DNA of 64,000 nucleotides from Candidatus Hydrogenedens sp. (GCA_049968235.1 JBMFRC010000005.1:1-64000), one strand, 5' to 3'; positions 4,068 to 55,403 are shown, counted from the stretch's first letter. Program-made: numbers and translations. The notes: generated by a model from the sequence alone, not told the origin.

Positions 4068-5430
4068 GAATCATGAAATAGGTTTCTTGTTTATTTTCAA
4101 CAGGGCGAATAGTCAGTTTAAGAGTTCCTATTTCTTTTAGGAATTGTTTCCATGGTGAGAAAATCGCAGACATATCTCTTTCATTAATGCCGTTTAACAA
4201 TTCCTGTTTTGCGCACCAGAGAAAGATTTTTTCTATGTCCTCACTAATTTGTGGTATATTGATACTTATTATGTGAGATGTTTCTAAATCTTTTCTATTT
4301 TCATGAAGTTGGGTTATTATTTCTGCCAGAAAAGGTTCCTGAGTGCAAATAATCCATCCTTCTTTATAATAAACGAGAGAAAAACAAAAAGCATTGTTCC
4401 ACGCAGGAACGACATATCCCTCGAAAGAATTCCATTGGTGTGGATAAAATGGCAAATCTAAATCGAGTTCTGATAAGAGTCGCTTAATATCATTACTTTT
4501 ATAAGGGACCCAGAAACCAAAGATAGGAATAGGATTCAAAAATTTGTCTGACATACCCGAATAAAGAAAGACTCCTTTATTTAAAAGTCCTTTATCTCTA
4601 AATTGTAAATATAATTTTTCAGGAAAAGTGTCTTTAAAAGAAGATAAAAATATTAAAACAGGGTTTAAGGCTTTTGGGGGTATAAATGACAAAAGGGTAT
4701 TTTTTAATGAGTTCTCTAAGAGTATATCCTTTAACGGACTACACAAAAGAATGGATGAAATATTAGAATTAGAAAAATCCGAAAAAGGATTAATGTAATC
4801 TTCTGTTCTTCTATTATTAATATGCCCCTCGACAAACAAATTGTTTTCGGAATGAACTGAAAGGGATACTTTAACTTTTTCCCCTAATTCTATATAAGCC
4901 ATATAATTGTTTATACTTAACGGTTTTCTGGAACAAGGGACAACCTGATTTAGAATCGTATCTTTATTACTAATTAAAAGTTCATTCCCTTTCCATATGC
5001 AGTAATATTCTCTGTTATCAATAATATTGTTAGACATATTCCATAAAGATAAAAGAAACAATCGAAATAATCGTCCCGGTTTGATAGATACCAGATAATC
5101 TCCCTGTTTATTCCAACTGATGAGTAAAGGTTTTCCCACCCATAAATACCAGCGGAATGGAGTAGGTCTTATACCCCATTTTTTCCTAAAAAATAGTTCC
5201 ATATTATATAAATATTCAAAAAGATATTTACTTGCAGAGATAGTTATTGGCTGTTTCTTTACAGAACTCCAGAAATAAGGAAAATCTGGAAAATATATGG
5301 ATAAATTGGTATCCTGAATTACATACCCATGAAAACCCTGTTCAGGAGTTAGTATAAAAAAGATAAACCCTATGATACAAAAAGATAGAAAAATAATGAA
5401 TATTAAAAACTTTTTATATCTTCGTTTCAT
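4042..5430 (-). CDS. hypothetical membrane-anchored protein
   Basis: 462 aa with an N-terminal TM (FLIFIIFLSFCIIGFIFFIL). It overlaps the downstream gene by 26 bp, which suggests an operon. Confidence 0.45.
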   Translation of the reverse strand: MKRRYKKFLIFIIFLSFCIIGFIFFILTPEQGFHGYVIQDTNLSIYFPDFPYFWSSVKKQPITISASKYLFEYLYNMELFFRKKWGIRPTPFRWYLWVGKPLLISWNKQGDYLVSIKPGRLFRLFLLSLWNMSNNIIDNREYYCIWKGNELLISNKDTILNQVVPCSRKPLSINNYMAYIELGEKVKVSLSVHSENNLFVEGHINNRRTEDYINPFSDFSNSNISSILLCSPLKDILLENSLKNTLLSFIPPKALNPVLIFLSSFKDTFPEKLYLQFRDKGLLNKGVFLYSGMSDKFLNPIPIFGFWVPYKSNDIKRLLSELDLDLPFYPHQWNSFEGYVVPAWNNAFCFSLVYYKEGWIICTQEPFLAEIITQLHENRKDLETSHIISINIPQISEDIEKIFLWCAKQELLNGINERDMSAIFSPWKQFLKEIGTLKLTIRPVENKQETYFMIRGGFVNEK

Positions 5431-20752: not shown

Positions 20753-21661
20753 ATGTGGGAAAAGAGGTTTACTATTCTTTTTGTATTTATTGGATTTTGT
20801 TTTTTTTCTCTATCAAGCAATGCAGTAGAGGTAGTTATACCTTCCGTTTCTGTTAATACGGGAGAATGCTTCGCAATAAATATTAACTTATATAGAGTTG
20901 AAGATGAAGATATTCGTACATCTGTAATTGCTTTTGCGTTTGACCCTTTGAAGATACAAATAGGTTGTAATAATTCGTTAAACTCGGATACTAACGGTGA
21001 ACCCTGGGTATATGACTCAGAAACATCTGACGGAGAACAGCCGATTGTATTAAACAATTCACTATTGAGCATAGGTATAAAATATCGCGTTGCTATATAT
21101 CCACAGGGGGTGATGATTGTAGTCCTCTGGGATGCTTCAGAGGCAATCCCTGCCGGCACATTATTTACAGTTCCATGTAAATTGAAGGATGGCGCCATAT
21201 CCGGGGATAAACTCAACACTCTCCTGATTTCAAAAGATTCGCCAATTTATATCATGAGAACCTTTCCGGATAATCATGTAGAAAACCTAACATTTTATTG
21301 TTCTTTTGCAGATATAAACGCTTTACCTGTAAATTCCACACTTATTTCAGGTTATGTTTATGTAAAGAACGCAACGGATGGAGAACCTGAAGGAGGAGAG
21401 GGCTATCTTGAAGGTGGATTTGAAGGAACTTCAATAGAAGGAACAACAGAGGGTAGTATTGTAGAAGGTATCACAGAAGGAACAAGTTCTGAAGGCATTC
21501 CCGAGGGAAATTCAACAGAAGGGGAAAGACCTATTTGTGGTTGCAGAGAAAGGTACTCTCCAGAACAAAGAAATATGATGTCCTTCTTACAAATTCTAAA
21601 ATTGAATAATATGAATATAGGATTTATGATTGCCCTTGTTGTAATACTTCGTCGATTGTAG
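20753..21661 (+). CDS. secreted protein with an EG-repeat low-complexity linker and a C-terminal hydrophobic+RRL tail
   Basis: Signal peptide. EGGFEGTSIEGTTEGSIVEGITEGTSSEGIPEGNSTEGE repeats, of the same type as in the 868-aa protein. Tail IGFMIALVVILRRL*. Confidence 0.5.
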   Translation: MWEKRFTILFVFIGFCFFSLSSNAVEVVIPSVSVNTGECFAININLYRVEDEDIRTSVIAFAFDPLKIQIGCNNSLNSDTNGEPWVYDSETSDGEQPIVLNNSLLSIGIKYRVAIYPQGVMIVVLWDASEAIPAGTLFTVPCKLKDGAISGDKLNTLLISKDSPIYIMRTFPDNHVENLTFYCSFADINALPVNSTLISGYVYVKNATDGEPEGGEGYLEGGFEGTSIEGTTEGSIVEGITEGTSSEGIPEGNSTEGERPICGCRERYSPEQRNMMSFLQILKLNNMNIGFMIALVVILRRL

Positions 21662-21721: not shown

Positions 21722-22540
21722 ATGAGACCTGTTCTTATTCATATTGGTATATTTGAACTTCATTCGTATGTTGTTTTTATGGCATTAGGACTTTTAGTGG
21801 GAGTATCACTTGCCTTGCGAGAGAATAATCGCCTCCCCCAACCTTATCCTGTATCGGGGAAAGTAGGAATCTGGGGGTTAATTGGCGGATTGATTGGAGC
21901 AAATGCTTATTTCATAATTCAATATGAAGGAATTCTACAACTGTATAAAATTATTTTTTTCTGGTCAGGTGGCTATGTGTTTTTTGGCGGTTTCATTGGT
22001 GGAGCCATTGGGGTCTGGCTTTATTTAAGGAAACAAAAAGTTCCTTTTCTTCCTTGTGCGGATATAGGTGCTCCTTATCTTGCTCTGGGGCATGCAATAG
22101 GGAGATTGGGTTGTTTTACAAACGGTTGCTGTTGGGGTGATTTATGTAACGCACCCTGGGGTATTGTATTCCCAAAAGATGATGGGATATATGCGTATCA
22201 CACCACTGAACATTTATTACATGTTGATGATTTGACGCCATTGCCTATTCATCCCACGCAATTATATGAAGTCTTCGGACTTATTATTATCTTTTTCTTA
22301 CTACGTATGATTTACCACAACAAACAATACAATGGACAGGTCCTATTATGGTATTTTTGCCTTTACGGAGCATGGCGATTTTTTGATGAAAATTTCCGCG
22401 GTGATAGTCCCCATGCAACATTTGGTATGACCACTTCTCAGTTGATTGCTTTATCTGCTTGCCTTATCAGTGGATTTATTATCTTTATATTCTATTTGCT
22501 TATAGTACGTAAAAAAGAAAAGTTGTCATCTAATAATTGA
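21722..22540 (+). CDS. lgt: prolipoprotein diacylglyceryl transferase Lgt
   Basis: Multi-TM protein with the Lgt signature GRLGCFTNGCCWG. Length 272 aa. Confidence 0.8.
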   Translation: MRPVLIHIGIFELHSYVVFMALGLLVGVSLALRENNRLPQPYPVSGKVGIWGLIGGLIGANAYFIIQYEGILQLYKIIFFWSGGYVFFGGFIGGAIGVWLYLRKQKVPFLPCADIGAPYLALGHAIGRLGCFTNGCCWGDLCNAPWGIVFPKDDGIYAYHTTEHLLHVDDLTPLPIHPTQLYEVFGLIIIFFLLRMIYHNKQYNGQVLLWYFCLYGAWRFFDENFRGDSPHATFGMTTSQLIALSACLISGFIIFIFYLLIVRKKEKLSSNN

Positions 22541-27381: not shown

Positions 27382-27689
27382 TAACTTCCTTAAAACATAA
27401 ATTTTATATAATATTTTCTAAATATATATGTCAAATATTTGACATGTTATTTAAATAATAGATAAAATAATATGAAATAAGCAAAAAATATAATAAAAAA
27501 TTTAGTTTTTATTTAGTTGATAAATATTTATTTGCCATTGACTTAGAATTTTATAAAAAAAAAAAAATAATAATGTAAAATAAGTGTAGTTGTGATATAA
27601 TTAAAACATTAGTTTCATGAGAAGGGAATTGTACCTTTGGTTAATAAAGTTACTCAACAGTGAATCAAAAATTTAAAGGAGCAATATTT

Positions 27690-30266
27690 ATGTTAAAAAA
27701 ATTTTTTGAACCATCATTAAAAAATCATGCAGGGATGATAGGGTTATTTTTGATTCTATCATTTTTTGTGATTGTAAACACAGGTTGGTCTGCAATCTTG
27801 ATTGATAATATCGAGGATTTGCAGAAAATCGGAAATGACCCGGAGTATCCGATAAACGAGTCATATGAGTTATCGCAGGATATTGATGCAAGTATCACAT
27901 ATTCCTGGAACGAAGGATCTGGCTTTCAGCCGATAGGGTCGTCATCCAATCCGTTTAGTGGAACTCTGGATGGGAAAGGTTATCAGATTTTTAATTTATA
28001 CATTAACCGTTCCTCGGAGGATTATGTAGGTTTGTTTGGTAGGGTAAGTAGTAACGGAAAAATTCTAAACTTAGGTTTGGAAAATAATATAGTTATTGGT
28101 AAAAACTATGTTGGAGGGCTTATCGGTTCGAATGAAGGTCGTGCTGATACTTGCTATGCCAACGGTTCTGTTTCAGGCACAAATAATGTAGGTGGACTTG
28201 CTGGAAATAATACAGGGACATTGAATAAATGTTATTCTACAAATATAGTTGCTGGTGCTACGACTGTTGGTGGTTTAGCGGGAAGGAATGCCGGCACAAT
28301 TTCCCAATGCTATTCCACAAGTAATGTATCGGGGACATCCGCTGTAGGCGGTCTCATTGGTGCGAATGCAACATGGAACGCATCCCTGCGTAGATGTTAT
28401 GCTGGAGGAAATGTTTCAGGCACATCCAATATCGGCGGACTCATTGGAAGTATGTCGTGGGGCTGGGCATTTGAAACATATTCTATAGGACATGTAAGTG
28501 GCTCCTCAAGAATAGGCGGTCTCGTGGGATACCGTTTCTTCCTTGCATTTATATTCATGAGTTATTGGGATAAGGATACATCCGGTCTTGCCACATCAAG
28601 TGGCGGAACTGCCAAAACAACAGAACAAATGAAACAGCAGTCCACATATACAAATTGGTCTTTTGGTTCTGTATGGGGCATTATTCCCGGTGTAACCTAT
28701 CCATACTTTATCTGGACTTATCCCGTCCCAAATCTCTTAGGTTTAACGGTGGAAGAGGCAAATAGCGTTCTTACCAGCACGGGTTATGTGTTGGGAACGG
28801 TATCTGAACAATGTAGTTTCACTACTCCTGCCGGGTTAATAATGATTCAACAACCATTTCCAGGACAGTATTTAGAACCAGGCAGTCCTGTAAATGTAAC
28901 TATATCTACAGGACCCTGTCCACCAAATACTGTACCTAATGTTGTAGGATTAAAACAATCTATTGCTGAAAATGAGATTGTTTCTGCAGGATATGTTGTG
29001 GGAACAGTAGGAGAACAATGCAATAATACAATTCCTGCGGGTTATGTTATAAGTCAGGAACCTGCTGGGGGTGAGGAATTGGAACCTGGAAATGCGGTCA
29101 ATATTATTGTATCAACAGGTCCATGTCCTATTGCAGTGCCGAATGTGGTGGGTATGACCGAAGAGAATGCGGATGTAACATTAGTATCTGCAGGATTATT
29201 CTTAGGTGTCGTAAGCGAACAATGTAGCGACACTATTCCGCAAGGTAGAATTATCAGTCAGAACCCATTGGCAGGAACACAGGTCATTCCAGGAAGTTAT
29301 GTTGATGTAGTAATATCCTCAGGTCCTTGTGGAGAAGGGACGTCCGAAGGTATTCCTGAAGGAACACTGGAAGGTATAGAAGAAGGTATTGTGGAAGGAA
29401 CTCCGGAAGGTATTCCGGAAGGAGTTGAGGAAGGTATAATTGAAGGAATCCCTGAAGGTATTTTAGAAGGAACACCGGAAGGTGTAGAAGAAGGTATAGT
29501 GGAAGGAACACCGGAAGGAACGCCAGAAGGTTCTATTGAAGGCGAAAATGTAATTACTCCAAATGTTGTTGGGCAACCATTTGTAAATGCGGTATTCGCT
29601 ATTAATAATGCTCAATTGGTAGTCGGTGTAATTACTGAAGTTTGCACTGATGAATACCCGTTTGGTGTTATAATTGCTCAGGAACCTGTTGGTGGTTCGA
29701 TAGTAGAAATCGGGTCTATGGTCAATCTATGGGTATCCATAGGTCCCTGCCCACCTGAAGGAGAAGGAGTTGTTGAAGGGACACCCGAAGGAACACCGGA
29801 AGGTATTCCCGAGGGAGTTGTTGAAGGAACGCCTGAAGGAACACTCGAAGGAGTTGTTGAAGGGACACCCGAAGGAACACCGGAAGGTATTCCCGAGGGA
29901 GTTGTTGAAGGAACGCCTGAAGGTACATCCGAAGGAACCCCAGAAGGTATAGAAGAAGGCGAGGGAGAAATCATAGGAAGACATAGTGCAGACCAGAATA
30001 ACGATAAACGGATAAGTTTTACTGAACTGCTTCGTGTAATTCAATTATTTAATTCCTGGGGCTATCATTGTCAATCTGGAACTGAAGATGGATTTGCTCC
30101 GGGTGCCGGTGGAGATACCTCATGCACTCCACATACTTCTGATTACAATCCCCCTGATTGGAAAATAGGTTTTACTGAGCTACTGCGACTGATACAAATC
30201 TTTAATACGGGTGGCTATCATTATTGTCCGGGAGAAAGTGAAGATAACTTCTGCCCAGGATTGTAA
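27690..30266 (+). CDS. secreted mosaic protein: GLUG-motif repeats + 4 PASTA domains + TPEG/EG low-complexity linkers + twin dockerin/EF-hand-like C-terminal repeats
   Basis: GLUG-type repeats (VGGLIGSNEG..., VGGLAGNNTG..., VGGLAGRNAG..., VGGLIGAN...). Four PASTA-like units (VPNVVGLKQSIAENEIVSAGYVVGTVGEQ...STGP etc.). EGTPEGIPEGVEEG... repeats. C-terminal DQNNDKRISFTELLRVIQLFN... and DWKIGFTELLRLIQIFNTGGYHYC. The likely start is ATG 27690 with RBS AAAGGAG, rather than the ORF-track GTG at 27660. Confidence 0.65.
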   Translation: MLKKFFEPSLKNHAGMIGLFLILSFFVIVNTGWSAILIDNIEDLQKIGNDPEYPINESYELSQDIDASITYSWNEGSGFQPIGSSSNPFSGTLDGKGYQIFNLYINRSSEDYVGLFGRVSSNGKILNLGLENNIVIGKNYVGGLIGSNEGRADTCYANGSVSGTNNVGGLAGNNTGTLNKCYSTNIVAGATTVGGLAGRNAGTISQCYSTSNVSGTSAVGGLIGANATWNASLRRCYAGGNVSGTSNIGGLIGSMSWGWAFETYSIGHVSGSSRIGGLVGYRFFLAFIFMSYWDKDTSGLATSSGGTAKTTEQMKQQSTYTNWSFGSVWGIIPGVTYPYFIWTYPVPNLLGLTVEEANSVLTSTGYVLGTVSEQCSFTTPAGLIMIQQPFPGQYLEPGSPVNVTISTGPCPPNTVPNVVGLKQSIAENEIVSAGYVVGTVGEQCNNTIPAGYVISQEPAGGEELEPGNAVNIIVSTGPCPIAVPNVVGMTEENADVTLVSAGLFLGVVSEQCSDTIPQGRIISQNPLAGTQVIPGSYVDVVISSGPCGEGTSEGIPEGTLEGIEEGIVEGTPEGIPEGVEEGIIEGIPEGILEGTPEGVEEGIVEGTPEGTPEGSIEGENVITPNVVGQPFVNAVFAINNAQLVVGVITEVCTDEYPFGVIIAQEPVGGSIVEIGSMVNLWVSIGPCPPEGEGVVEGTPEGTPEGIPEGVVEGTPEGTLEGVVEGTPEGTPEGIPEGVVEGTPEGTSEGTPEGIEEGEGEIIGRHSADQNNDKRISFTELLRVIQLFNSWGYHCQSGTEDGFAPGAGGDTSCTPHTSDYNPPDWKIGFTELLRLIQIFNTGGYHYCPGESEDNFCPGL
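29330..29960 (+). repeat. in-frame tandem DNA repeats encoding (T/I)PEG/EG linkers (two blocks, 29330-29540 and 29755-29960)
   Basis: Near-identical ~70-bp units, for example gttgttgaagggacacccgaaggaacaccggaaggtattcccgagggagttgttgaaggaacgcctgaagg twice at ~29770 and ~29850. Confidence 0.8.
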
Positions 30267-43112: not shown

Positions 43113-43799
43113 TTATTTTTCTAATAAACAGGAAAGATAGAATTCCAATTCGGAAAGAATCGGGTGTTGCCAATCTTTTTTCAATGCCCGAAGAATTTCA
43201 CGATAATACCAAAGAGTACCTTCTTTTTTTCCATTGAATTGCGACCAGATATCATCTCCCATCCGGCAGTAATCATGATATAACGAATACAAATTGTGCC
43301 ATTTATCACATGCAATAATAAGTTTTACATCAGATGACATTGAATAACAGCGGTCTATAAATTCTTCTTTCCTTTGTTTCCAGGGTTTTTTGGGATAGGT
43401 AAAGGAATCGGAACATTGTATTACATAATAGGCAACCTTAGAACCAAATATAATTTCGATTTTTTTCAACAATTCAAAAGCATCTTTATTCTCTTCCTTT
43501 TTATTCATCCAGGAGACCCGAAAAGAATCAACATCTATTTCCCTCTCATTTTCTAATACTTCAATAAATCTATCTGCCATTTTCAATTTAGTGGGCTGAC
43601 TTTGGTCTTCGACAGAATCATGTAATAATGCTGAAATAAACTGGTCTTCATCTCCACCCTCTTCAAGGACCTTACTTGCAACACTAAACAAATGGGTTAT
43701 ATAAGGGACATTTCGACCTTTCCTCTTTTGCTCTTTATGTAAAGTCATCACTAAATCTATTGCCTGCAAAACCCTTCCCGTATTTAATTGAATCATCAA
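43113..43799 (-). CDS. HD-domain hydrolase of the RelA/SpoT (p)ppGpp-hydrolase type (small alarmone hydrolase-like)
   Basis: HLFSVASKVLEEGGDEDQFISALLHDSVED matches the H...ALLHDvvED HD signature. Length 228 aa. The start overlaps the upstream GDPD stop (ATGA). Confidence 0.55.
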   Translation of the reverse strand: MMIQLNTGRVLQAIDLVMTLHKEQKRKGRNVPYITHLFSVASKVLEEGGDEDQFISALLHDSVEDQSQPTKLKMADRFIEVLENEREIDVDSFRVSWMNKKEENKDAFELLKKIEIIFGSKVAYYVIQCSDSFTYPKKPWKQRKEEFIDRCYSMSSDVKLIIACDKWHNLYSLYHDYCRMGDDIWSQFNGKKEGTLWYYREILRALKKDWQHPILSELEFYLSCLLEK

Positions 43800-44623
43800 T
43801 CCTTATTCCTTTTTTGACCTCGTTTTTCTAAATATTCGATAAGTTGAAGGGGAGAATCTGTTTGTATTCCGTCAACACCTCGTTTTAATGATTCTTCCCA
43901 GGAGTCAGGACCTGCATCATCCATAAAAACAATCGTTCCCTGTTCATGACAGATGCTGACAAAACTTGCTGTGCATGATTTGAAATCCGAAGCAACCACA
44001 GGTGGTGAAAACCGTTTAAGGATATATTCAAGATGTTTTTCGGTTCCCGGGTCAGGCATGATAAAACAATCCGGGCATTCTTTTTTTATGGTTTCAAGGT
44101 CTCGCAGACCTCCATACCAAACAACACGGTGTTTCATTCCATATTTTTCAAGTTTTTCAAGAACCTTTTTCGGGTCTGCATTTTTCATATCCAGATATAG
44201 TCCCACTTTTCCCTGGCATAATTCTAATATTTCATCTAAAGTGGGTATTCTTTGGTTTGCAAATTCTGAACCGATACGACTACCAATATCTATTTTCTTC
44301 AATTCCTCTAATGTGAATTTTGAGACTTCTCCCTTTATATCTTTTGTATAATCGTCCACTCTACTATTATGTATACTTACGATTTCTCCATCTGCTGTTG
44401 TTCTCAAATCTATCTCGATAAAATCAACATTTAACTCAATGGCTTTTTGATATGCTATCAAGGTGTTTTCTGGATAACCCTGATGAAATCCACGATGTGC
44501 TATTACATATATTCCACCGTGTTTAGGTGTGGGTAAGGATAGTTTTCCCGTTTCTGCAAATAAAATAGAACTCGTTATGAGCAAACATATTACAATACAT
44601 CCCCAAAAAAAGGCTTTTTTCAT
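43796..44623 (-). CDS. glycerophosphodiester phosphodiesterase (GDPD) family, secreted
   Basis: VIAHRGFHQGYPENTLIAYQKAIELNVDFIEIDLRTTADGEIVSIHN. Signal peptide. Confidence 0.75.
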   Translation of the reverse strand: MKKAFFWGCIVICLLITSSILFAETGKLSLPTPKHGGIYVIAHRGFHQGYPENTLIAYQKAIELNVDFIEIDLRTTADGEIVSIHNSRVDDYTKDIKGEVSKFTLEELKKIDIGSRIGSEFANQRIPTLDEILELCQGKVGLYLDMKNADPKKVLEKLEKYGMKHRVVWYGGLRDLETIKKECPDCFIMPDPGTEKHLEYILKRFSPPVVASDFKSCTASFVSICHEQGTIVFMDDAGPDSWEESLKRGVDGIQTDSPLQLIEYLEKRGQKRNKD

Positions 44624-44655: not shown

Positions 44656-45204
44656 CTAATTCGTTATTTCTATTTTCCTTAGGGTAAGGAAAAGGGAAGT
44701 AAAAAGGATAACGATAAAATCCATACAATATGAAATCTTACTCCCTGAAGATTGACCACACCCAAAGATATAATACGCTTTGGGCGGTTTGTTCCCTACC
44801 CCTTTAAGAGTTATCTCTGCACTTTGATTTTCTGATGCAACTACTTTTAATTTGCCCTGATATTCTTTCGCTTTCAACGGAATAAATTGAATTTTAACTA
44901 CAGCAGATTGGTTTGCAAACAGTGAAAAGTTTGTATCCCCGGATATGAAAAATACTTTTTCGTTATCGGAATTGTTCTGCTCTTCATTTTCCAGTGTAAC
45001 AGAGCCCGATAATACTCCCTGTCCTGTGTTGATAATATACATTTCCTTTTCGGCGATTTTACCTACTTCTACGAAACCAAAAATATAATCATATTGTGGA
45101 GCCGGTTGAATAGTTAAAATAGGTGGATTATCAGACCACAATTGAAAGGGGATGGCAAGAAGGATAAGTAAAATAATAGGAAGAAAAAATAATTTTTTCA
45201 TCAA
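44656..45204 (-). CDS. hypothetical secreted protein
   Basis: Signal peptide. Length 182 aa. Confidence 0.4.
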   Translation of the reverse strand: MMKKLFFLPIILLILLAIPFQLWSDNPPILTIQPAPQYDYIFGFVEVGKIAEKEMYIINTGQGVLSGSVTLENEEQNNSDNEKVFFISGDTNFSLFANQSAVVKIQFIPLKAKEYQGKLKVVASENQSAEITLKGVGNKPPKAYYIFGCGQSSGSKISYCMDFIVILFTSLFLTLRKIEITN

Positions 45205-45394
45205 ACCTCTCCAATATAAATCAATTATTTTACATATATTATTATAATGTCTATTTATAAATTTTAGTCCTTACTATTGTAAAAAAACTGGACCCTTAAA
45301 TTAAATTCTGTTTTTCCCAAAAAAAATACAACCGACCCCTGCACCGGTGTTCGATGCAGGGGTCAGATTTACATTTTGCGTTATTTACTGCGGA

Positions 45395-48300
45395 TTAGTT
45401 AGTATTTGCTCTTTTCCTTCTGAGGACGAAGAACATTCCTACACCCGTCATTGTGATGAACATCAAATCACCAAGGTAATTGGGCACGCCTTCTGTTGGC
45501 GAACAAGAGATGAACAGGAATCTGCGCTTTGGCTTGTAACCTTCACCAGTAAGGTCAACATACACCTCTTTCGCAGGGGAGACACCATCCGATACAACGA
45601 ATAGCACCTTACCGGCATATGTTCCAACTTTTTTCGGAGCAAATGCAACTTCAACATACTTTGTTTCGCCGGAAGGTATCTCTATGTTCGCGGTCTCGAA
45701 TGTTACTGCAAATACATTATTGGCTGTATCCTTGACATCTATTGCTACATTGACAGGAATCTTACCTTTGTTTGCAAGGACAATCTTCTGCTTGTATGTC
45801 TTTTCTATTAACTGCTTACCAAAGTCAACGACAAGTGGCGTTATGGATAGATTTCCAGTTACCACTATAGGAGCCTCTTTTACAACAACTTTTCTACTAA
45901 CTTGTGCCTTATTGCCTGATGGGTCTTGTGCAGAGTAAACAAGTTCGTATGTAGCAGGAACACTGGTATTTACTTTACCAGATACCTGAACATTAAGATC
46001 TCCTGCACAGGCATCCGTCGCAGTTGCACCCGGGTCGTTAAAGGCTTGTCCTACCTGAATTTCGATTGTGCTATTTCCATTCAGGGTTATTGTCGGTTTC
46101 TGAGTATCAACGATACGAATAACACGCGTCTTAGAATCGGAATTACCTGAAGCATCAAAGGCTGTATAGGTCAGCGTATATTCACCCGGTACATTCACAT
46201 TTACACTACCAACGGTTTGTACTTCTAAGTTTCCACTACATCCATCTGTAGCCGTTGCACCTGGGTCGTTAAATGTAGACTTACATTCTAATACTACTTC
46301 CGAACTACCCAGTAGTGTTACCACCGGTTTTGTAGTATCTACGACATTGACGGTCCGGGTTACAGGTGTTGCGGAATTTCCTGAAGCATCTGCTGCCGTG
46401 TATGTAATTGTATATGAACCAATTACATTTGTATCTACGGTACCTGTAACAGAAACAGTAACCTGCGTGTCACATGTATCGCTTGCTGTTGCACCCGGGT
46501 CAGTAAAGTTAGACTTGCATTCTACACTAATCGTGTTTTCACCTAATAAAGTGATAACTGGTTTTGTAGTATCTACAATCTTAACGGGCATGTCTTTTGA
46601 TGACTTATTGCCAGAATCGTCCTCTGCCACATAGCGGACTACATATCCTTTTCCTGCAGAAGATGTATCTATCGTATAGACTTGATACATTGTTAAAGCA
46701 TCATATATCGCCGCTGCAGTTAGAACTTGTGTAACGCTACCACAGGAATCAATGGCGGTTGCTCCCGGATCTGTAAACACATCATTGCACTCAATGGTCA
46801 TTTCCTCTTGGTTAAGTGTTATTACAGGTGATGTAGTATCTACAATCTTAACGGGCATGTCTTTTGATGACTTATTGCCAGAATCGTCCTCTGCCACATA
46901 GCGGACTACATATCCTTTTCCTGCAGAAGATGTATCTATCGTATAGACTTGATACATTGTTAAAGCATCATATATCGCCGCTGCAGTTAGAACTTGTGTA
47001 ACGCTACCACAGGAATCAATGGCGGTTGCTCCCGGATCTGTAAACACATCATTGCACTCAATGGTCATTTCCTCTTGGTTAAGTGTTATTACAGGTGATG
47101 TAGTATCAATTATGTTAACCAACATATCTGCTTCTGATCTATTTTCAGAATTATCTGTGGCTACATAGCGGACTTTATATGTTTTGCCTACTGCACTTGT
47201 ATCAATGGCTTCTACCTCTTTATCACCATAAATAGCATCGACTTCATATATTGTTGCTGCAGTTAAAACAAGAGGTATTCCACCTTCGCATTTATCTAAT
47301 GCTGTTGCACCGGGGTCTGTAAATATACCATTGCACTCAATAGTCATTTCCTCTTGATTTAATGTAATTTCAGGACCTTGTGTATCTACAACATGAATTG
47401 TTCTTGTTTTACTTGCGCTATTATTAGCATTATCAACGGCTGTATATGTAAGTGTGTAATCACCTACCTGATTATCATATACATATCCGCTAACAATAAC
47501 ATCTAAAATACCGGAACATACATCCTCCGCAGTTGCACCCGGATCTACGAAGTTCAATCCACATTCATGAGTAATCTCACTGGCACCATTTAAGGTTACG
47601 GTAGGAGCCTGCGTATCTACTACATTCACGGTACGTATTGCTTGTCCTATTTTTCCAGCACGGTCTGTTGCCGTGTAAGTAATCTGGTAACTGCCTACCT
47701 GATTTGTATTAACAATACCTGTCTTATTTACTGTCAAGTTACCATCGCAAGCATCCGTAGCCGTTGCACCCGGGTCAGTAAATACAGAACCACACTGTAC
47801 TGTAAGCGGGTTAGCACCAACTATAGTTACTGTAGGTGGCAGATTATCGCTCACATTAACGACACGAGTCCTTGTTGCTGTATTTCCATTTGCATCAGTC
47901 GCCGTATAGGTTATTGTATATTGACCTGGCTCATTTGCATTGACCACGGTTGCCGAATTATTTGTAACCGATACAGTGCCCTGGCATGTGTCACTTGCGG
48001 TTGCACCCGGGTCATAATATACACTATGACATTCAAGGGCATAAGGATTCGGTCCTATAAGCGTAATTACGGGAGGTGTCGTATCTACAACCTTAACGGT
48101 GCGTATTACAGGGTCTGCATTATTGCCTGAATCATCCGCAGCGGTATAGGTTAATGTATACTCGCCAACAGCGTTAGTATCCACAGTCCCTGATACATTC
48201 ACTCCTACATTGGTATCGCAACTATCCGTCGCAGTTGCACCCGGGTCATTAAATGTTGATTTACACTCCACCACTAATGGATTGTCTCCTAATAAGTTTA

Positions 48301-49909
48301 TTACCGGTTTCGTTGTATCTACTACATGAACTATTCTTTGGGCTGTTACTGTATTATTGGAACTGTCGGTAACAGAATAATCAACAGTGTAATCACCCGG
48401 TACTGCTGTATTTACATTATTTGTTACCTCAATTTGAGCGGTTAAATCACCATCCGGAATATCTGTCGCTGTTGCTCCAGCATCAACATATGTCGTACCG
48501 CATTCAACTGTTACCTCCGCCTCTCCTAATAATGTCAAAACTGGCGGTGTATCGTCTATTAACTCACTTACTGCAATATCACTCAATAACTCGCCACCAC
48601 TCAAACGATACTTCGCACGTCCTGTAATTGTCTGTGGTCCCGAAGAACTTTCACTGGCTTTCATACGATATGTAAACGATGCACCTTGCCCCGTTAAATT
48701 CGGAACAAAAATATATGCAAAGGATAAGGTGCCTGTCGCTCCATAATTCGGGACTATCGGCGGTGTCGGATTCTCACTTGCCAACGGTCCTTCATATGTC
48801 CAACCCGCAGGGATAAATTCTTCATATCCTAATGCGGTTACTGAACTCGTACATGGACTATCCGGATTAATACGAATATTTATTGTAACTTCAACAACTT
48901 CACCTGGAATATAGTAGTTCCTCGTAAAACTCCGACTAACCAATAAGCAAGGAACTGCACCATCCAATTGCGTTTCCACTTTGGGTGAAAGTATGGCATC
49001 GCCACAGGTGCGATATACAACCGCACTCGATTTTGTCTCAGAATCCTCAACGATCTCTCCTCCTATAACGGCAATCCCTGTATATGAAATCGGAACATTT
49101 ACAATATAAGTAAATTCCGCAGGAAATGAAGGAACTGTAGTATATGCGAATTCTAACAAACCTGTTTTTCCTATTGTAGGCTCAACCGGCAGACTGCCTC
49201 CCTGCAATCCCTGATATGTCCAGCCTGCAGGTAATGTGTCCTGGAAACCTAATGCAGTTATTGGCTGAGGACCTTCCTTCTCTATACGAATGGTTACATA
49301 AATATTCTGACCCGGAATATAAAAATTATTGTTTACACCCGATATCCCCGGACCGGATAATTCACGTGTAAAGGAAAGACTTGTCGGCTCTAATTGAATA
49401 ACATTTATCGTAGGAGCGCTCTCTAATTGAGGTCCACTTGTGCGATACAAAACCTTACCTTGAAGTTGCCCTGGCTCGCAAATAGTAGGAGGACAGGCAA
49501 TTCGGTAGGTAAAGGTTGCCGGGAATGATGGAACAAAGATGTATGCAAAATTCAGTGTTCCTGTTTGATTCGCATTTGGGACGATAGGGGGTGTAGGATT
49601 TTCACTGGCTAATGGACCTGAATATGAAAAGCCCGGCGGAATTTGCTCCTCATATCCTAAAGCGGTAATTGTCCCTTCGGAATTATCATAATTTATCGTA
49701 ACTTGAACAGATAACTCCGCAGTGCCATTGACAAAATAACCATTAGCATCCAGCCCCGTTATCTGTTTTGTTACTGTTACCAATCCCTGGGCACTCATCG
49801 TTACCACAAGGAATCCCACCATCAGTAAACATACAGAGATGGTTGTGCGTGTGCTTGTTAAACTTACAATAGAGTTTCCTGCTTTCATTTTTTTGCCTCC
49901 ACTGTTCAT
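45395..49909 (-). CDS. giant surface protein: N-terminal signal, 3 long beta-rich repeats, ~13 DUF5011-like Ig domains (...C.s.F.DPGATAtD...G.YtvtYtA.D.sGN...), C-terminal PEP-CTERM-like TM+RRKR tail
   Basis: Repeating ~85-90-aa units carrying DPGATATD. C-terminus SPTEGVPNYLGDLMFITMTGVGMFFVLRRKRANTN*. The likely start is MKAGN (~49888) with a GGAGG RBS. Confidence 0.7.
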   Translation of the reverse strand: MNSGGKKMKAGNSIVSLTSTRTTISVCLLMVGFLVVTMSAQGLVTVTKQITGLDANGYFVNGTAELSVQVTINYDNSEGTITALGYEEQIPPGFSYSGPLASENPTPPIVPNANQTGTLNFAYIFVPSFPATFTYRIACPPTICEPGQLQGKVLYRTSGPQLESAPTINVIQLEPTSLSFTRELSGPGISGVNNNFYIPGQNIYVTIRIEKEGPQPITALGFQDTLPAGWTYQGLQGGSLPVEPTIGKTGLLEFAYTTVPSFPAEFTYIVNVPISYTGIAVIGGEIVEDSETKSSAVVYRTCGDAILSPKVETQLDGAVPCLLVSRSFTRNYYIPGEVVEVTINIRINPDSPCTSSVTALGYEEFIPAGWTYEGPLASENPTPPIVPNYGATGTLSFAYIFVPNLTGQGASFTYRMKASESSSGPQTITGRAKYRLSGGELLSDIAVSELIDDTPPVLTLLGEAEVTVECGTTYVDAGATATDIPDGDLTAQIEVTNNVNTAVPGDYTVDYSVTDSSNNTVTAQRIVHVVDTTKPVINLLGDNPLVVECKSTFNDPGATATDSCDTNVGVNVSGTVDTNAVGEYTLTYTAADDSGNNADPVIRTVKVVDTTPPVITLIGPNPYALECHSVYYDPGATASDTCQGTVSVTNNSATVVNANEPGQYTITYTATDANGNTATRTRVVNVSDNLPPTVTIVGANPLTVQCGSVFTDPGATATDACDGNLTVNKTGIVNTNQVGSYQITYTATDRAGKIGQAIRTVNVVDTQAPTVTLNGASEITHECGLNFVDPGATAEDVCSGILDVIVSGYVYDNQVGDYTLTYTAVDNANNSASKTRTIHVVDTQGPEITLNQEEMTIECNGIFTDPGATALDKCEGGIPLVLTAATIYEVDAIYGDKEVEAIDTSAVGKTYKVRYVATDNSENRSEADMLVNIIDTTSPVITLNQEEMTIECNDVFTDPGATAIDSCGSVTQVLTAAAIYDALTMYQVYTIDTSSAGKGYVVRYVAEDDSGNKSSKDMPVKIVDTTSPVITLNQEEMTIECNDVFTDPGATAIDSCGSVTQVLTAAAIYDALTMYQVYTIDTSSAGKGYVVRYVAEDDSGNKSSKDMPVKIVDTTKPVITLLGENTISVECKSNFTDPGATASDTCDTQVTVSVTGTVDTNVIGSYTITYTAADASGNSATPVTRTVNVVDTTKPVVTLLGSSEVVLECKSTFNDPGATATDGCSGNLEVQTVGSVNVNVPGEYTLTYTAFDASGNSDSKTRVIRIVDTQKPTITLNGNSTIEIQVGQAFNDPGATATDACAGDLNVQVSGKVNTSVPATYELVYSAQDPSGNKAQVSRKVVVKEAPIVVTGNLSITPLVVDFGKQLIEKTYKQKIVLANKGKIPVNVAIDVKDTANNVFAVTFETANIEIPSGETKYVEVAFAPKKVGTYAGKVLFVVSDGVSPAKEVYVDLTGEGYKPKRRFLFISCSPTEGVPNYLGDLMFITMTGVGMFFVLRRKRANTN
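46566..47100 (-). repeat. perfect 2 x 267-bp tandem duplication inside the giant gene (duplicates one Ig-like domain, 89 aa)
   Basis: An identical segment is repeated: PVITLNQEEMTIECNDVFTDPGATAIDSCGSVTQVLTAAAIYDALTMYQVYTIDTSSAGKGYVVRYVAEDDSGNKSSKDMPVKIVDTT. The DNA unit starting ...gtagtatctacaatcttaacgggcatgtc... occurs at 46566 and again at 46833. Confidence 0.85.
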
Positions 49910-50130
49910 TGTTTTATTAACCTAAATTCCTTTGTTTTCATTACAAATTTTTGTAAACGAAAAAACTATATCTTAAATATTACACAAATTTAACTCAATT
50001 GTCAAATAAAATTTTCTTATTTGCCTTACAGCAGGTTATATTATACTTATACCTTATTAATTTTTATAATGCAAATACAAAAATGTTACAATCATACAGT
50101 ATTTTAATTACCAATGAAGGAGTAACATTT

Positions 50131-52489: not shown

Positions 52490-52963
52490 CTGTTCTCCTA
52501 TGCTACTTTATTTCTTCATTGTACCCGTCCCTCTTTTAGACTCCAATTGTTTATATGTATTGTTATAAATTCTGTTTTTTATAACTAATCACTTTTGTTT
52601 TTTATTTACATCTATATTCATAATTTATCTATATTCATAATTTATCCTTCTTATTTTTGCTTCAATGAATTCATATTCAATTGTTGTTCTATTGATAACA
52701 ATCTCTGTGCCAACTGAATATATTTTTGATGAAATATATTCATGTTATTTATTAGCAATGAGATACAATATAATTGCGGTTTGGGAAATATTCTCTCTTC
52801 CCATTCCTTTCCCAAAATATGTAAAGAAGGATTTAAATCTTTTAAATTTCCTTTACGCCCATCACTTAGAAAACTCAACGAAATACTACACAACATAACA
52901 TCTATTTTCTTTTCCTCCATTTTGTCATTTAACCCGTTCATAAATTCCTCCTCTTCCTCCTCC

Positions 52964-53170
52964 TTATTTCCTATTCCGATATAATGCACTTATGCCCCTT
53001 GCCACAAAATAAAAAGATATACCCGAACCAACCAAAACAGAAAATAACCATATTACATTACAAAAAGCATTAGCTACCTTAATCCCTAATATCGATAAAA
53101 CAATCCCAACTATTATAACTATTTCCGATGATAATATCGCTTTTAATCCGCTTATAATTATACTCATCAT
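52964..53170 (-). CDS. small membrane protein (68 aa, 2 TM)
   Basis: Translationally coupled (ATGA) to the upstream 83-aa membrane protein. Confidence 0.3.
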   Translation of the reverse strand: MMSIIISGLKAILSSEIVIIVGIVLSILGIKVANAFCNVIWLFSVLVGSGISFYFVARGISALYRNRK

Positions 53171-53418
53171 ATCTTGTCCTCCTTATTTCTTAAGGTTTGT
53201 GTTGCAATATAAAAAACTACATGTATTCCCGCTATTACTCCACACAAAACTATTAACCAAAATATCATCTTCATTAACAAACTCATTACCTTCATTCCTA
53301 CAAAAAACACCGCAACTCCTATGGCTAACTTACCTAAAGGATGCACAGATCCCACATATTTCCAGATATTTTCAATAAACCACTTCATTGCACCCCTGAT
53401 ACTTTCCCATTTTTTCAT
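53167..53418 (-). CDS. small membrane protein (83 aa, 2 TM)
   Basis: Hydrophobic helices LAIGVAVFFVGMKVMSLL and IFWLIVLCGVIAGIHVVFYI. Confidence 0.3.
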   Translation of the reverse strand: MKKWESIRGAMKWFIENIWKYVGSVHPLGKLAIGVAVFFVGMKVMSLLMKMIFWLIVLCGVIAGIHVVFYIATQTLRNKEDKI

Positions 53419-53988
53419 TATATCTTCTATTATCGGCTACCTTTTCTTTCTCTTTGTTCTGTTTACCTCTACTATCTTACAGTTCTCGCCCAATGGCGAC
53501 ATCTTCCTCGTTTCTTCCGGTAACAACCCCACTGCTTCCGATTCACTCTCTCCTCCTCTAAATAACTCCTTTATACCCCAACCACAAGCAATATAAATAC
53601 CGTCATACATCCGGATATTATCACCATCCACACAATTAGTTTCGGCTTTAATGGTGAAGTCTATTCATTGATTACAGTCTCCGGCGACGGCGTCGTCAAC
53701 CATGATATAACAGGATATAAACCACCTACACCAATTACTGCCCATTTTGCTATTTCAAAAAATATACTCATATTGTTATTTCCTTTATTAAGTTAATATT
53801 CAATTGTACTTAATATTTAGCAATACCCATGCCAAGCAGAACAAATGATAGAATATTTCTTTATTAAACAAAATAAATAACTGATATATAATAACTTAAA
53901 ACAAAATAATTATTTATAATGATTATATAAACCCTGCACTACATAAAGAGTATTTAAATCGTATTTACGAATTTAAATCAAAGAATAT

Positions 53989-54420
53989 TTACGCCCCCTT
54001 ATTCATTCTCTCTAATCGCTCCGAAAGCACATGAATAATATTCATTAAAAAACGAACCGCAATCTTCGTATCCATCATAGTAGACAATTGATGCTCATCC
54101 ATCGTAAACACACGGACAGGCATAAGAGCGACCGCAGACGCTGTACGCGGGGTCCTATTCAAAACGGACATCTCACCAAATACATCCCCAACACCAACCA
54201 CTGCTATCTCTTTCGCCTTCTTATATAAGCCCACCTTGCCTGATAATACTACAAACAAAGCAGAACCTAATTGCCCTTCATAAAAAATTGTTTTCCCCTG
54301 CGGATAATCAAAAATCTTCCCCTGCTTTAGAAGACATGCAATTTCTTCAGGGGTTAGCCCTTTGAATAAAGATACCTTTTCTGCATATTGCTGATACTTT
54401 GCCAAATTCTCCATATTCAA
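53989..54420 (-). CDS. stand-alone cyclic-nucleotide-binding (cNMP/CAP-family) domain protein
   Basis: FYEGQLGSALFVVLSGKVGLYK...GDVFGEMSVLNRTPRTASAVA is a canonical cNMP-binding beta-roll (FGE..l, R.A.a). No HTH follows. Confidence 0.65.
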   Translation of the reverse strand: MNMENLAKYQQYAEKVSLFKGLTPEEIACLLKQGKIFDYPQGKTIFYEGQLGSALFVVLSGKVGLYKKAKEIAVVGVGDVFGEMSVLNRTPRTASAVALMPVRVFTMDEHQLSTMMDTKIAVRFLMNIIHVLSERLERMNKGA

Positions 54421-54529
54421 ACTCCAAAAATATTCTACTATAAAAATAACATAATTTTATACACATTTGTTTCCTATCGAGATTAACAAAAACCTTCTAT
54501 GGATTAACATCCATTATCCACAGATACAA

Positions 54530-54850
54530 TTTAATCATAATGGTATATAAGTTATATATGTTTTTACGAGATAAAATCCCAAGGAGAAATTAAAATACAA
54601 AAGTCTGTATCTCTACTTTTCCTATTTTATTTGCTGTTTTTCTGTCCGGTTTTCTATCTTTCGCTTACCTATGCATACTTCTCCTTTTGCCCCCTTAATT
54701 CCCCATACATCCCCTTCAAATTATAAGCAGTCAATAACAAGAAATGAGATACTCCTCTCTATATGCTCTTTCTTGTCCTCCGTGGTGAAAATTATCTCAT
54801 TGTTTTGCTGAAAGTCCTGCCAGCCGTGCGGTTTTTATAGACGCATCCTA
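54530..54850 (+). repeat. intergenic composite repeat, copy A (family of 3 in this window)
   Basis: Shares ...tatatatgttttta(c/t)gagataaaatcc(c/g)a.gagaaattaaaatacaa.agtct.tatctctactt..., ...ttatttgctgtttt(t)ctgtccg... and ...cttaattccccatacatcc.cttcaaattat... with copies B and C. Confidence 0.75.
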
Positions 54851-55403
54851 AATCCGCCTGCATGGCAAATGCATCTCTATGTAGGAGCGAATAATCATTT
54901 GCTCAAAAAACGGATATATGTTATTTGCATTTAACTATTAAAGGGAATAGAAGAATTAATGATGGCAACGAAATAAAATTTTTATTTCATACGGGCGAAA
55001 ATGCTTGTAATACATTAATGTAATTATTTTTGTAATGGTTACGATTTTCCGAAGTGAGGGAAGTTGAAAGAGTAGAAACCGATAAATATTAATACAACTT
55101 GTTGGTGTATTGGTTATGTTTACTACGGGGTTTTTGTATGAGACCAGATAAAAAGACTGCGGCGATTTTTGGGGACATGTTATAAGAGAAGTTGTAAGAT
55201 AAAATAAAATTAAAAGTTAAAATGCAGGAGAAATGAGAGATTTTATGGAAGATTTTGTATATTCGAGATGAGACAAATATAGAACGAACATACAGGTTTA
55301 CAGAGAATAAATTATGAGGGAAATAGGTGAAAAAATGTTTTGAAAAAGGAAAGCGTTTGAAGTAATATATGTATATAAATGAATATAATCAGGAGGAATT
55401 CTA

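What the first reader, a model, noticed from the sequence alone, without database searches (positions are those of the whole stretch)
45395..49909. 1504-aa Ig-repeat surface protein with a perfect 2 x 267-bp tandem duplication and a PEP-CTERM-like tail
About 13 DUF5011-like Ig domains (DPGATATD...YTvtYtAtDasGN) form a long stalk. One domain is duplicated without a single mismatch (46566-46832 and 46833-47099), indicating a very recent expansion or a hot spot for phase- or length-variation. Alternatively it is an assembly collapse or expansion artefact. A third, diverged copy (about 60% identical) lies immediately upstream. The C-terminus (SPTEGVPNY-LGDLMFITMTGVGMFFVL-RRKRANTN) has the P(E/T)x motif + TM + Arg-cluster architecture of exosortase (PEP-CTERM) substrates. 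No exosortase is in the window.
Basis: partly seen in the sequence, partly recalled or inferred. Interest (0 to 1): 0.6.

Follow-up and report, generated by a model that had tools for sequence, protein, structure and literature searches.

The report
Giant surface protein with cysteine-tagged tail
This is a very long stalk-like cell-surface protein of an uncultured Hydrogenedentota bacterium in which one stalk unit was copied very recently, and its tail is not the proposed PEP-CTERM signal but a cysteine-containing anchoring signal, found across that phylum, that matches no curated model.

Summary
The ORF at 45395-49909 (-) encodes 1504 aa, probably 1497 from the start at 49888. It contains a 543-nt perfect period-267 repeat (46565-47107), which is an exact in-frame duplication of one Ig-like domain. 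There are 11 PF16403 domains, not about 13. They are joined by one ASH/HYDIN-type Ig domain and three N-terminal beta-sandwich modules.

Two other assemblies of the same species carry two units (A+B) or one A/B hybrid, where the window has A+B+B. About eight orthologues have the two-unit length. Stalk length therefore varies, always in frame. Read support for the extra copy cannot be checked here.

The PEP-CTERM reading is not supported. There is no PEP motif, and no PEP-CTERM model matched any of 20 tails. The tail belongs to a conserved C-terminal module: hydrophobic-[G/S]-C-[A/G/S]-P, then G-D 12-13 residues after the Cys, a hydrophobic helix and an Arg/Lys cluster. The downstream 182-aa neighbour has the same tail. 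A profile search found 54 protein clusters that carry it at the extreme C-terminus, on different passenger domains. All named members are Hydrogenedentota. The nearest curated models are MYXO-CTERM and JDVT-CTERM, both below cutoff. The most likely mechanism is myxosortase-like sorting, and no enzyme for it was found. I rate it a new variant of a known kind, of moderate interest.

The parts
49977..50005 (-). Promoter-like site (TTGACA-17-TAATAT) upstream of the gene
   Evidence: 10 of 12 consensus positions. This is a consensus match only; the region as a whole has no excess of such sites.
45395..49909 (-). Giant surface protein gene: 1504-aa ORF, probable start at 49888 (1497 aa)
   Evidence: Orthologues are annotated 'immunoglobulin-like / DUF5011 domain-containing protein [Candidatus Hydrogenedens sp.]'.
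49787..49888 (-). Sec-type signal peptide (MKAGNSIVSLTSTRTTISVCLLMVGFLVVTMSA|QG)
   Evidence: Read directly from the sequence: a basic/polar N-region, a hydrophobic core and an A-x-A-like site. No predictor was run.
48548..49786 (-). Three N-terminal beta-sandwich modules (aa 42-454), the distal tip of the molecule
   Evidence: AlphaFold model with pLDDT 90.6, all beta strand. Best PDB matches are the PrgB Ig-like domains, antigen I/II C-domains and integrin alpha legs. One weak DUF11-type repeat hit, TIGR01451.
45875..48547 (-). Array of 11 PF16403 Ig-like domains of 75-93 aa each (the stalk)
   Evidence: 11 stretches, 513.9 bits against a cutoff of 27; domain boundaries.
47099..47377 (-). 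Unit A: older, diverged paralogue of the duplicated domain (aa 845-937, 93 aa)
   Evidence: 64% protein identity to B (DNA roughly two-thirds identical by eye). Present in all full-length orthologues.
46832..47098 (-). Unit B, copy 1 (aa 938-1026, 89 aa)
46565..46831 (-). Unit B, copy 2 (aa 1027-1115), identical to copy 1. This extra copy is absent from L002, L003 and the orthologues.
46565..47107 (.). Full extent of the perfect period-267 repeat (543 nt). It includes 9 nt shared with the end of unit A.
45539..45850 (-). ASH/HYDIN/PapD-like Ig domain (aa ~1354-1457) directly before the tail
   Evidence: (PF22544, 36.1 bits against 25.5).
45398..45538 (-). C-terminal tripartite tail YKPKRRFLFISCSPTEGVPNYLGDLMFITMTGVGMFFVLRRKRANTN. 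The invariant Cys1469 is encoded at 45503-45505 and the invariant Asp1481 at 45467-45469.
   Evidence: 61.9 bits to the tail HMM built here.
45332..45366 (-). Terminator-like hairpin (15-bp stem, 10 G-C pairs, then a T run) 29 nt after the stop codon
44656..45204 (-). Downstream 182-aa paralogue: signal peptide + ASH-type Ig domain + the same Cys...Asp tail (…YYIFGCGQSSGSKISYCMDFIVILFTSLFLTLRK…)
   Evidence: Cep192_D4/Ig_CFAP65; BLASTP E 6e-9, the alignment runs through the tail; 37.1 bits. Conserved next to the giant gene in L004-L007.
43113..44623 (-). Conserved downstream neighbours: secreted GDPD phosphodiesterase (43796-44623) and an HD_4 hydrolase (43113-43799). A functional link is unproven.
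   Evidence: The synteny is kept in L004-L007 and L009, down to 43% identity of the giant protein.

Best explanation
The gene encodes a Sec-exported, fibre-like cell-surface protein, probably an adhesin, of an uncultured Hydrogenedentota bacterium close to Candidatus Hydrogenedens.

The anatomy is shown. Three beta-sandwich modules form the distal tip. Eleven tandem PF16403 Ig-like domains form a stalk. One ASH-type Ig domain leads into a C-terminal tail.

One stalk domain (unit B, 89 aa) was duplicated very recently and exactly, in frame. This probably happened by unequal recombination or replication slippage between the older paralogous units A and B (inferred). The same segment has also been shortened in a sister strain. 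The number of stalk domains, and hence the protein's reach from the cell, therefore varies within the species.

The tail is not PEP-CTERM. It is a lineage-wide module of the form [hydrophobic]-[G/S]-Cys-[A/G/S]-Pro, about 9 residues, Gly-Asp, a helix of about 16-18 hydrophobic residues, and an Arg/Lys cluster.

The mechanism is inferred by analogy with MYXO-CTERM (Guo, Haft & Wall 2025, PMC11980579). After export, the helix holds the protein in the inner membrane with the basic cluster in the cytoplasm. The invariant Cys, which sits in a lipobox-like context, is lipidated. An intramembrane protease removes the helix. The lipid-anchored protein is then moved to the cell surface.

The downstream 182-aa protein carries the same tail and would use the same route.
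For: Architecture:
- PF16403 in 11 stretches (E 4.9e-158) and ASH/HYDIN Ig.
- N-terminal model with pLDDT 90.6, three beta-sandwiches resembling adhesin Ig arrays.

Duplication:
- 543-nt perfect repeat, exactly one domain, in frame.

Length variation:
- The same species in two NCBI MAGs has A+B (L002, 1408 aa) or one A/B hybrid (L003, 1315 aa).
- The L003 junction lies in a shared stretch of only 14 nt, too short for a k-mer collapse.
- Eight orthologues are 1408-1417 aa, which is the A+B form.
- An independent near-perfect 234-bp x 2.2 duplication of another domain occurs in a distant orthologue on a 1.43-Mb contig.

Tail:
- Cys and Asp are the only invariant columns in 20 tails.
- A profile search of 1.84 billion proteins gave 55 clusters at E <= 1e-3, 54 of them matching at the extreme C-terminus.
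- Passenger domains differ: ASH Ig, PASTA, an HExxH protease-like protein, a DUF11-like module and a 3712-aa protein.
- In 81 tails the Cys-to-Asp spacing is 12-13 residues in 68. Pro is at +2 in 49, and [FG/LG/IS] precedes the Cys in 60.
- All named members are Hydrogenedentota, across 38-65% GC.
- MYXO-CTERM (16.4 bits, cutoff 20) and JDVT-CTERM (19.8, cutoff 27) are sub-threshold but full-domain matches and the only Cys-type ones; GVDTG_CTERM scored similarly (20.9, cutoff 29).
- lgt is present in the window. A BamC-like lipoprotein match suggests a diderm envelope.
Against: - No processing enzyme was found. There is no CPBP, exosortase, rhomboid or sortase domain among the 43 scanned window ORFs or in the ±10-kb neighbourhoods of six tail-bearing genes. 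Whole genomes could not be searched.
- Cleavage and lipidation are pure analogy.
- The window's own tail scores nothing against MYXO-CTERM or JDVT-CTERM. Its only hit is Loki-CTERM at 14.9 bits, below the 19.9 cutoff, on the helix alone.
- The invariant Asp at the start of the helix is unlike MYXO-CTERM, whose helix lacks charged residues (10.1101/2023.06.07.544157).
- The three-unit allele is not on record in any other assembly.
- L002, which is 5 substitutions away over about 14 kb, has one B copy. This could be a collapse in L002 or an over-expansion in the window.
- An adhesin function is inferred from the fold only.
Confidence: 0.6

Rival explanations
1. The tail is only a permanent C-terminal membrane anchor. 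The protein stays tethered to the cytoplasmic membrane by its last helix, nothing is cleaved or lipidated, and the conserved Cys and Asp serve another role such as oligomerisation or membrane positioning.
For: No sorting enzyme was found in the window or in six neighbourhoods. No curated sorting-signal model reaches its cutoff. A charged Asp at the helix start is atypical of MYXO-CTERM.
Against: The module is always at the extreme C-terminus, on unrelated passenger domains, with a fixed Cys-to-Asp spacing and a basic cluster. That is the hallmark of processed sorting signals. A plain anchor needs no invariant Cys in a lipobox-like context 12-13 residues outside the helix. A protein of about 1,500 aa with 15 beta-sandwich modules tethered in the periplasm of a diderm would be hard to accommodate.
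Confidence: 0.25
2. The tail is a PEP-CTERM-type signal, cleaved by an exosortase encoded elsewhere in the genome.
For: The tail has a tripartite layout with a Pro-containing motif, a hydrophobic helix and RRKR. An exosortase elsewhere in the genome cannot be excluded.
Against: There is no P-E-P motif. 'PTE' lies 8 residues before the helix, and the following residues vary even among close orthologues. No PEP-CTERM (TIGR02595) hit was found at E <= 10 in any of 20 tails, whereas Cys-type signals do appear. The invariant residues are Cys and Asp, not Pro or Glu.
Confidence: 0.04
3. The second B copy is an assembly artefact (false expansion), and the real gene has the common A+B form.
For: The three-unit allele is found in no other assembly. 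L002 is nearly identical (5 substitutions over about 14 kb outside the repeat) and has a single B. About eight orthologues have the A+B length.
Against: Short-read assemblers usually collapse perfect tandem repeats rather than expand them, so L002 is the more likely one to be wrong. A 267-nt duplication is longer than the usual k-mer overlaps that cause false end duplications. The copy is exactly one domain and in frame. Real copy-number change in this segment is shown by the L003 hybrid junction, and by an independent duplication in L007.
Confidence: 0.2

Closest known systems
MYXO-CTERM sorting signal and myxosortase MrtX (Myxococcota; TIGR03901; Haft 2023 preprint 10.1101/2023.06.07.544157; Guo, Haft & Wall 2025 PMC11980579)
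   Same: Both have a tripartite C-terminal tag with an invariant Cys in a Gly-rich motif ('GC[GAS]'), then a hydrophobic helix and an Arg cluster. Both occur on many different large surface proteins of one phylum, including PF16403 Ig-repeat proteins (Myxococcaceae and Hyalangium homologues). One family member gives a full-length sub-threshold match of 16.4 bits.
   Different: No member reaches the cutoff of 20 bits, and the window's tail gives no hit at all. The spacer between the Cys and the helix is 12-13 residues long. There is an invariant Asp at the helix start, whereas the MYXO-CTERM helix lacks charged residues. Pro at Cys+2 is frequent. The phylum is different. No myxosortase homologue has been identified.
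JDVT-CTERM (NF033191) and CGP-CTERM, the other Cys-containing signals assigned to myxosortase-like CPBP proteases
   Same: Both have an invariant Cys followed at a fixed distance by an invariant Asp (JDVT has DP nine residues after the Cys). The Cys-Gly-Pro / Cys-Ala-Pro motif resembles CGP-CTERM. The best sub-threshold hit is 19.8 bits to JDVT-CTERM.
   Different: The score is below the cutoff of 27. The Asp is 12-13 residues from the Cys and is preceded by Gly, not followed by Pro. JDVT systems have one target next to its enzyme, whereas here there are many targets and no adjacent enzyme.
PEP-CTERM / exosortase (TIGR02595)
   Same: Only the general tripartite layout and the C-terminal position on secreted proteins of an environmental bacterium.
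   Different: There is no PEP motif and no model hit. The invariant residues are Cys and Asp.
Giant Ig-repeat surface proteins with PF16403/DUF5011, LapB-repeat or OmpL47-type domains, and repeat-number-variable adhesins of Gram-positive bacteria (Rib/alpha C, SasG/Aap; from general knowledge)
   Same: Long arrays of Ig-like domains act as a stalk. Near-identical tandem domain repeats change in number by recombination and alter the protein's length.
   Different: Only one domain is duplicated here, not a long identical array. The anchor is a Cys-containing C-terminal tag rather than LPXTG or a T9SS domain.

Membership tests
PEP-CTERM (TIGR02595) exosortase substrates | Pro-Glu-Pro signature motif directly before the hydrophobic helix | tested here: not met
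   The tail reads ...FISCSPTEGVPNYLGDLMF.... There is no PEP, and the residues between Cys and Asp vary among orthologues.
PEP-CTERM (TIGR02595) exosortase substrates | Match to the curated HMM at or above its cutoff | tested here: not met
   No PEP-CTERM hit at E <= 1 for the whole protein, or at E <= 10 for this tail and 19 related tails.
PEP-CTERM (TIGR02595) exosortase substrates | Exosortase (EpsH/Xrt) encoded in the same genome | not testable with these tools
   None among the window ORFs scanned with Pfam. The rest of the genome is not available.
MYXO-CTERM (TIGR03901) myxosortase substrates | Invariant Cys in the signature motif, then a hydrophobic helix and an Arg-rich cluster at the extreme C-terminus | tested here: met
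   The Cys is invariant in 20 aligned tails and the motif is seen in 81 collected tails. The match is C-terminal in 54 of 55 clusters.
MYXO-CTERM (TIGR03901) myxosortase substrates | Match to the curated HMM at or above its cutoff (20 bits) | tested here: not met
   The window's tail gives no hit. The best family member scores 16.4 bits.
MYXO-CTERM (TIGR03901) myxosortase substrates | Helix region free of charged and Pro residues (Haft 2023) | tested here: not met
   An invariant Asp opens the hydrophobic segment.
MYXO-CTERM (TIGR03901) myxosortase substrates | Cognate CPBP/Rce1-type myxosortase in the genome | not testable with these tools
   No CPBP-like ORF in the window or the loci, by regex and Pfam and by precomputed Pfam for the neighbourhoods.
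JDVT-CTERM (NF033191) | Cys motif with a near-invariant Asp-Pro nine residues downstream, and the HMM cutoff of 27 bits | tested here: not met
   The Asp is 12-13 residues from the Cys and is not followed by Pro. The best score is 19.8 bits.
PF16403 Bacterial surface protein Ig-like domain (DUF5011) | Match to the Pfam HMM above the gathering score | tested here: met
   513.9 bits against 27, in 11 stretches.
HYDIN/CFA65/VesB-like (ASH, PapD-like) Ig domain PF22544 | Match to the Pfam HMM above the gathering score | tested here: met
   36.1 bits against 25.5 in the whole protein, and 41.3 bits for the C-terminal fragment.

The most novel reading that the evidence does not exclude
The Cys...Gly-Asp tail is the substrate tag of a Hydrogenedentota-wide protein-sorting system that has not yet been described. 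Its Cys lies in a true lipobox-like context ([LIF]-x-[GS]-C, preceded by Lys/Arg). This could mean that Lgt lipidates a C-terminal signal directly. A dedicated intramembrane protease would then remove the helix. That protease could be a new myxosortase subfamily or an unrelated enzyme. The conserved secreted GDPD/HD_4 neighbours may take part in handling the anchor.
Probability: 0.3. Interest if true: 0.6.

Novelty: new variant of a known kind. Interest (0 to 1): 0.4.

Why it matters
Hydrogenedentota is an uncultured candidate phylum whose cell-surface biology is essentially unknown. A phylum-wide C-terminal tag that no curated model captures gives three things:
- a way to list its surface proteome from sequence alone;
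- a concrete target for finding the cognate sorting enzyme by phylogenetic profiling;
- one more data point for the emerging class of Cys-containing sorting signals, whose lipidation step is still unresolved even in Myxococcus.

The tandem duplication itself is ordinary. It shows within-species variation in stalk length in an adhesin-like protein, which is common in bacteria.

Tried and rejected
1. A word-indexed homology search with the C-terminal 161 aa found nothing. The full-length query was needed.

2. I considered a third tail candidate in the window, ORF 20753-21661, which ends ICGC...helix...RRL and sits next to lgt. It does not match the tail HMM built here, so I dropped it.

3. I looked for the sorting enzyme and found none.
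   - A regex for CPBP motifs in all ORFs of the window and the loci then held (L001-L006) gave no hit.
   - Pfam scans of 43 window ORFs gave no hit.
   - The ±10-kb neighbourhoods of six tail-bearing genes contain no CPBP, exosortase, rhomboid or sortase. One has a T2SS F gene.

4. I asked whether L002's apparent 99.3% identity and 15 gaps meant an indel-prone assembly. They are an alignment artefact of unit A laid over unit B. Outside the repeat there are only 5 substitutions.

5. I asked whether the L003 single-unit form was a k-mer collapse. Its junction lies in only 14 shared nucleotides, so a collapse is unlikely.

6. An exact look-up of the three-unit protein in other assemblies found nothing.

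7. The supplementary tables of the Haft preprint, which might show Hydrogenedentota in the species list, are not held.

8. Rfam gave only one tRNA in the window, which is irrelevant here.

Full report
**Observation**

The ORF 45395..49909 on the minus strand encodes 1504 aa. Orthologues and two other assemblies start at MKAGN (49888), which gives 1497 aa.

Tandem Repeats Finder reports a 267-nt unit in 2.0 copies at 100% identity over 46565-47107. A period-267 scan finds 276 consecutive matching positions, which is a 543-nt perfect repeat.

In frame, the two copies are aa 938-1026 and aa 1027-1115. Each runs from 'SPVITL...' to '...KIVDTT', which is exactly one Ig-like domain of 89 aa. I call this unit B.

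An older paralogue, unit A (93 aa, 47099-47377), lies directly upstream. It is 64% identical to B in protein and, by eye from the alignment, roughly two-thirds identical in DNA.

Pfam finds 11 stretches of PF16403 (E 4.9e-158) and a HYDIN/ASH-type Ig domain at aa ~1354-1457. NCBIfam adds LapB-repeat and OmpL47-type hits. The description is therefore confirmed, except that there are 11 PF16403 domains rather than about 13.

**Organism and relatives**

Exact-protein look-ups placed the locus in two NCBI MAGs, GCA_049969095.1 (L002) and GCA_049971155.1 (L003). NCBI names their giant protein as Candidatus Hydrogenedens sp..

A scan of species-representative genomes with the small neighbour found Candidatus Hydrogenedens terephthalaticus at 79% identity, plus two uncultured MAGs. 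The window has 37.4% GC. It belongs to a Hydrogenedentota bacterium.

**Copy-number variation**

| Assembly | Units | Length |
|---|---|---|
| Window | A+B+B | 1497 aa |
| L002 | A+B | 1408 aa |
| L003 | single A/B hybrid | 1315 aa |

- **L002.** Outside the repeat it differs from the window by only 5 substitutions over about 14 kb. Its single B could be a short-read collapse of a perfect repeat, or the window could be over-expanded.
- **L003.** It is 99.7-99.85% identical to the window. It switches from A-like to B-like sequence within a shared stretch of just 14 nt, CAAGAGGAAATGAC. That is too short for a k-mer collapse, so this looks like a real in-frame deletion.
- **Orthologues.** Eight orthologues at 65-89% identity are 1408-1417 aa, which is the A+B form. 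A+B is therefore ancestral, and the extra B is unique to the window.
- **Other assemblies.** The three-unit protein is not on record elsewhere.
- **An independent case.** The orthologue on a 1.43-Mb contig (L007, 54% identity) carries a 234-bp x 2.2 repeat at 98% identity in a different Ig domain. Its relative P0013 has only one copy of that domain.

Domain gain and loss is thus recurrent in this gene family. All variants keep the reading frame. This is length variation, not on/off phase variation. Without reads, I put the chance that the window's extra copy is an artefact at about 0.2.

**The rest of the protein**

The N-terminus has a Sec-type signal peptide (read from the sequence).

Residues 42-460 were modelled with an alignment of 22 homologues. 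The mean pLDDT is 90.6, and the model is all beta strand in three modules. Foldseek against the PDB returns arrays of Ig-like domains from adhesins (PrgB, antigen I/II C-domains) and integrin alpha legs. E-values are down to 7e-12, but TM-scores are low, as expected for multi-domain rods.

With a C-terminal anchor, these three modules would be the distal tip and the Ig array would be the stalk.

A promoter-like site (50005-49977) and a strong terminator-like hairpin (45366-45332) bracket the gene. These are consensus matches only.

**The tail**

No PEP-CTERM model matches the whole protein, the tail alone at E <= 10, or any of 20 related tails.

The 182-aa ORF immediately downstream (44656-45204) has a signal peptide, an ASH-type Ig domain and a clearly related tail. 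BLASTP gives E 6e-9, and the alignment runs through the tail.

In an alignment of 20 tails from homologues, the only invariant columns are one Cys and one Asp.

A profile of that alignment was searched against 1.84 billion representative proteins. It found 55 clusters at E <= 1e-3, and 54 of them match at the extreme C-terminus.

The passenger domains differ:
- ASH Ig domains;
- PASTA domains;
- an HExxH protease-like protein;
- a DUF11-like module on its own;
- a 3712-aa protein.

Statistics from 81 collected tails:

| Feature | Count |
|---|---|
| Cys-to-Asp spacing of 12-13 residues | 68 of 81 |
| Residues after the Cys are AP, GP or SP | 49 of 81 |
| Residues before the Cys are FG, LG or IS | 60 of 81 |
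| Residue before the Asp is Gly | 59 of 81 |

Members span 38-65% GC. Every member that carries a name is Hydrogenedentota.

An HMM built from these tails hits only two ORFs in the window. They are the giant gene (61.9 bits) and its small neighbour (37.1 bits).

**Comparison with known signals**

Among curated NCBIfam sorting-signal models, the Cys-type matches that cover the whole domain are MYXO-CTERM (16.4 bits, cutoff 20) and JDVT-CTERM (19.8, cutoff 27). GVDTG_CTERM scores 20.9 (cutoff 29). All are below cutoff, and each is for a single family member.

[quoted passage not shown] They are assigned to CPBP/Rce1-type myxosortases (10.1101/2023.06.07.544157). MrtX has been shown experimentally to cleave MYXO-CTERM in a Cys-dependent way. 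The proposed pathway is lipidation of the Cys, possibly by Lgt, followed by export through the type II secretion system (PMC11980579).

The present tail shares the class features: an invariant Cys, the tripartite design, and many passengers within one phylum. It differs in three ways:
- a spacer of 12-13 residues;
- an invariant Gly-Asp at the helix start;
- a frequent Cys-x-Pro.

It also has a more lipobox-like context before the Cys than MYXO-CTERM is described as having.

Neither paper mentions Hydrogenedentota, and a literature search linked no sorting signal to the phylum.

**What is missing**

No candidate enzyme was found in the window. This rests on Pfam scans of 43 ORFs, a motif regex, and the neighbourhoods of six tail-bearing genes. 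Whole genomes could not be searched. Cleavage, lipidation and surface display are therefore inferred, not shown.

The window does encode Lgt and a BamC-like lipoprotein. Both are consistent with a diderm that has a lipoprotein pathway.

The cluster of giant gene, small tail protein, secreted GDPD and HD_4 hydrolase is conserved down to 43% identity of the giant protein. Its meaning is unknown.

**Verdict**

The sequence observation is correct.

The protein is an ordinary kind of object, a giant Ig-repeat surface protein with a recent domain duplication and within-species length variation.

The PEP-CTERM interpretation is wrong.

The part worth attention is the tail. It belongs to a conserved Cys- and Asp-containing C-terminal module that is widespread in Hydrogenedentota and is not captured by the current Pfam or NCBIfam models. 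It is best read as a new variant of the MYXO-CTERM class of sorting signals, with its enzyme still to be found.

Noticed in passing
window 20753-21661 (+) and 21722-22540 (+): A 302-aa ORF with a weak cohesin-like hit ends in ...ICGC...hydrophobic helix...RRL. It sits directly upstream of lgt (PF01790, E 2.8e-56). Its tail does not match the Cys...Asp tail HMM.
   Followed up: partly
window 27660-30266 (+): An 868-aa protein with four PASTA domains and a GLUG motif ends in ...HTSDYNPPDWKIGFTELLRLIQIFNTGGYHYCPGESEDNFCPGL. A very similar C-terminal motif ends the unrelated-length protein P0056. This suggests another conserved C-terminal module of unknown role.
   Followed up: no
window 43113-44623 (-); L007 15188-16748; L009 14857-16256: A secreted glycerophosphodiester phosphodiesterase (GDPD) and an HD_4 hydrolase follow the giant gene in all close relatives, and still do in a relative at 43% identity. 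A link to anchor processing is conceivable but untested.
   Followed up: partly
L007 13168-13681: There is an independent near-perfect tandem duplication (234 bp x 2.2, 98%) of a different Ig domain in the orthologous gene of a distant Hydrogenedentota MAG, on a 1.43-Mb contig.
   Followed up: yes
L010 8817-10630: Two adjacent small proteins (328 and 209 aa) both carry the Cys...Asp tail in a 65% GC Hydrogenedentota MAG. A type II secretion F gene lies 1.4 kb upstream and a PF16403 protein lies directly downstream.
   Followed up: partly
window 52600-55400: This stretch of about 2.8 kb has only short ORFs (143 aa at most) and no Rfam match. It could be gene-poor or degraded sequence.
   Followed up: partly
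window 18935-20623 (-): A Ser/Thr protein kinase domain is fused to an FGE-sulfatase (formylglycine-generating enzyme-like) domain.
   Followed up: no
window 2262-5430 (-): Two overlapping ORFs of 601 and 462 aa have hydrophobic N-termini and no Pfam match at E <= 0.001.
   Followed up: no
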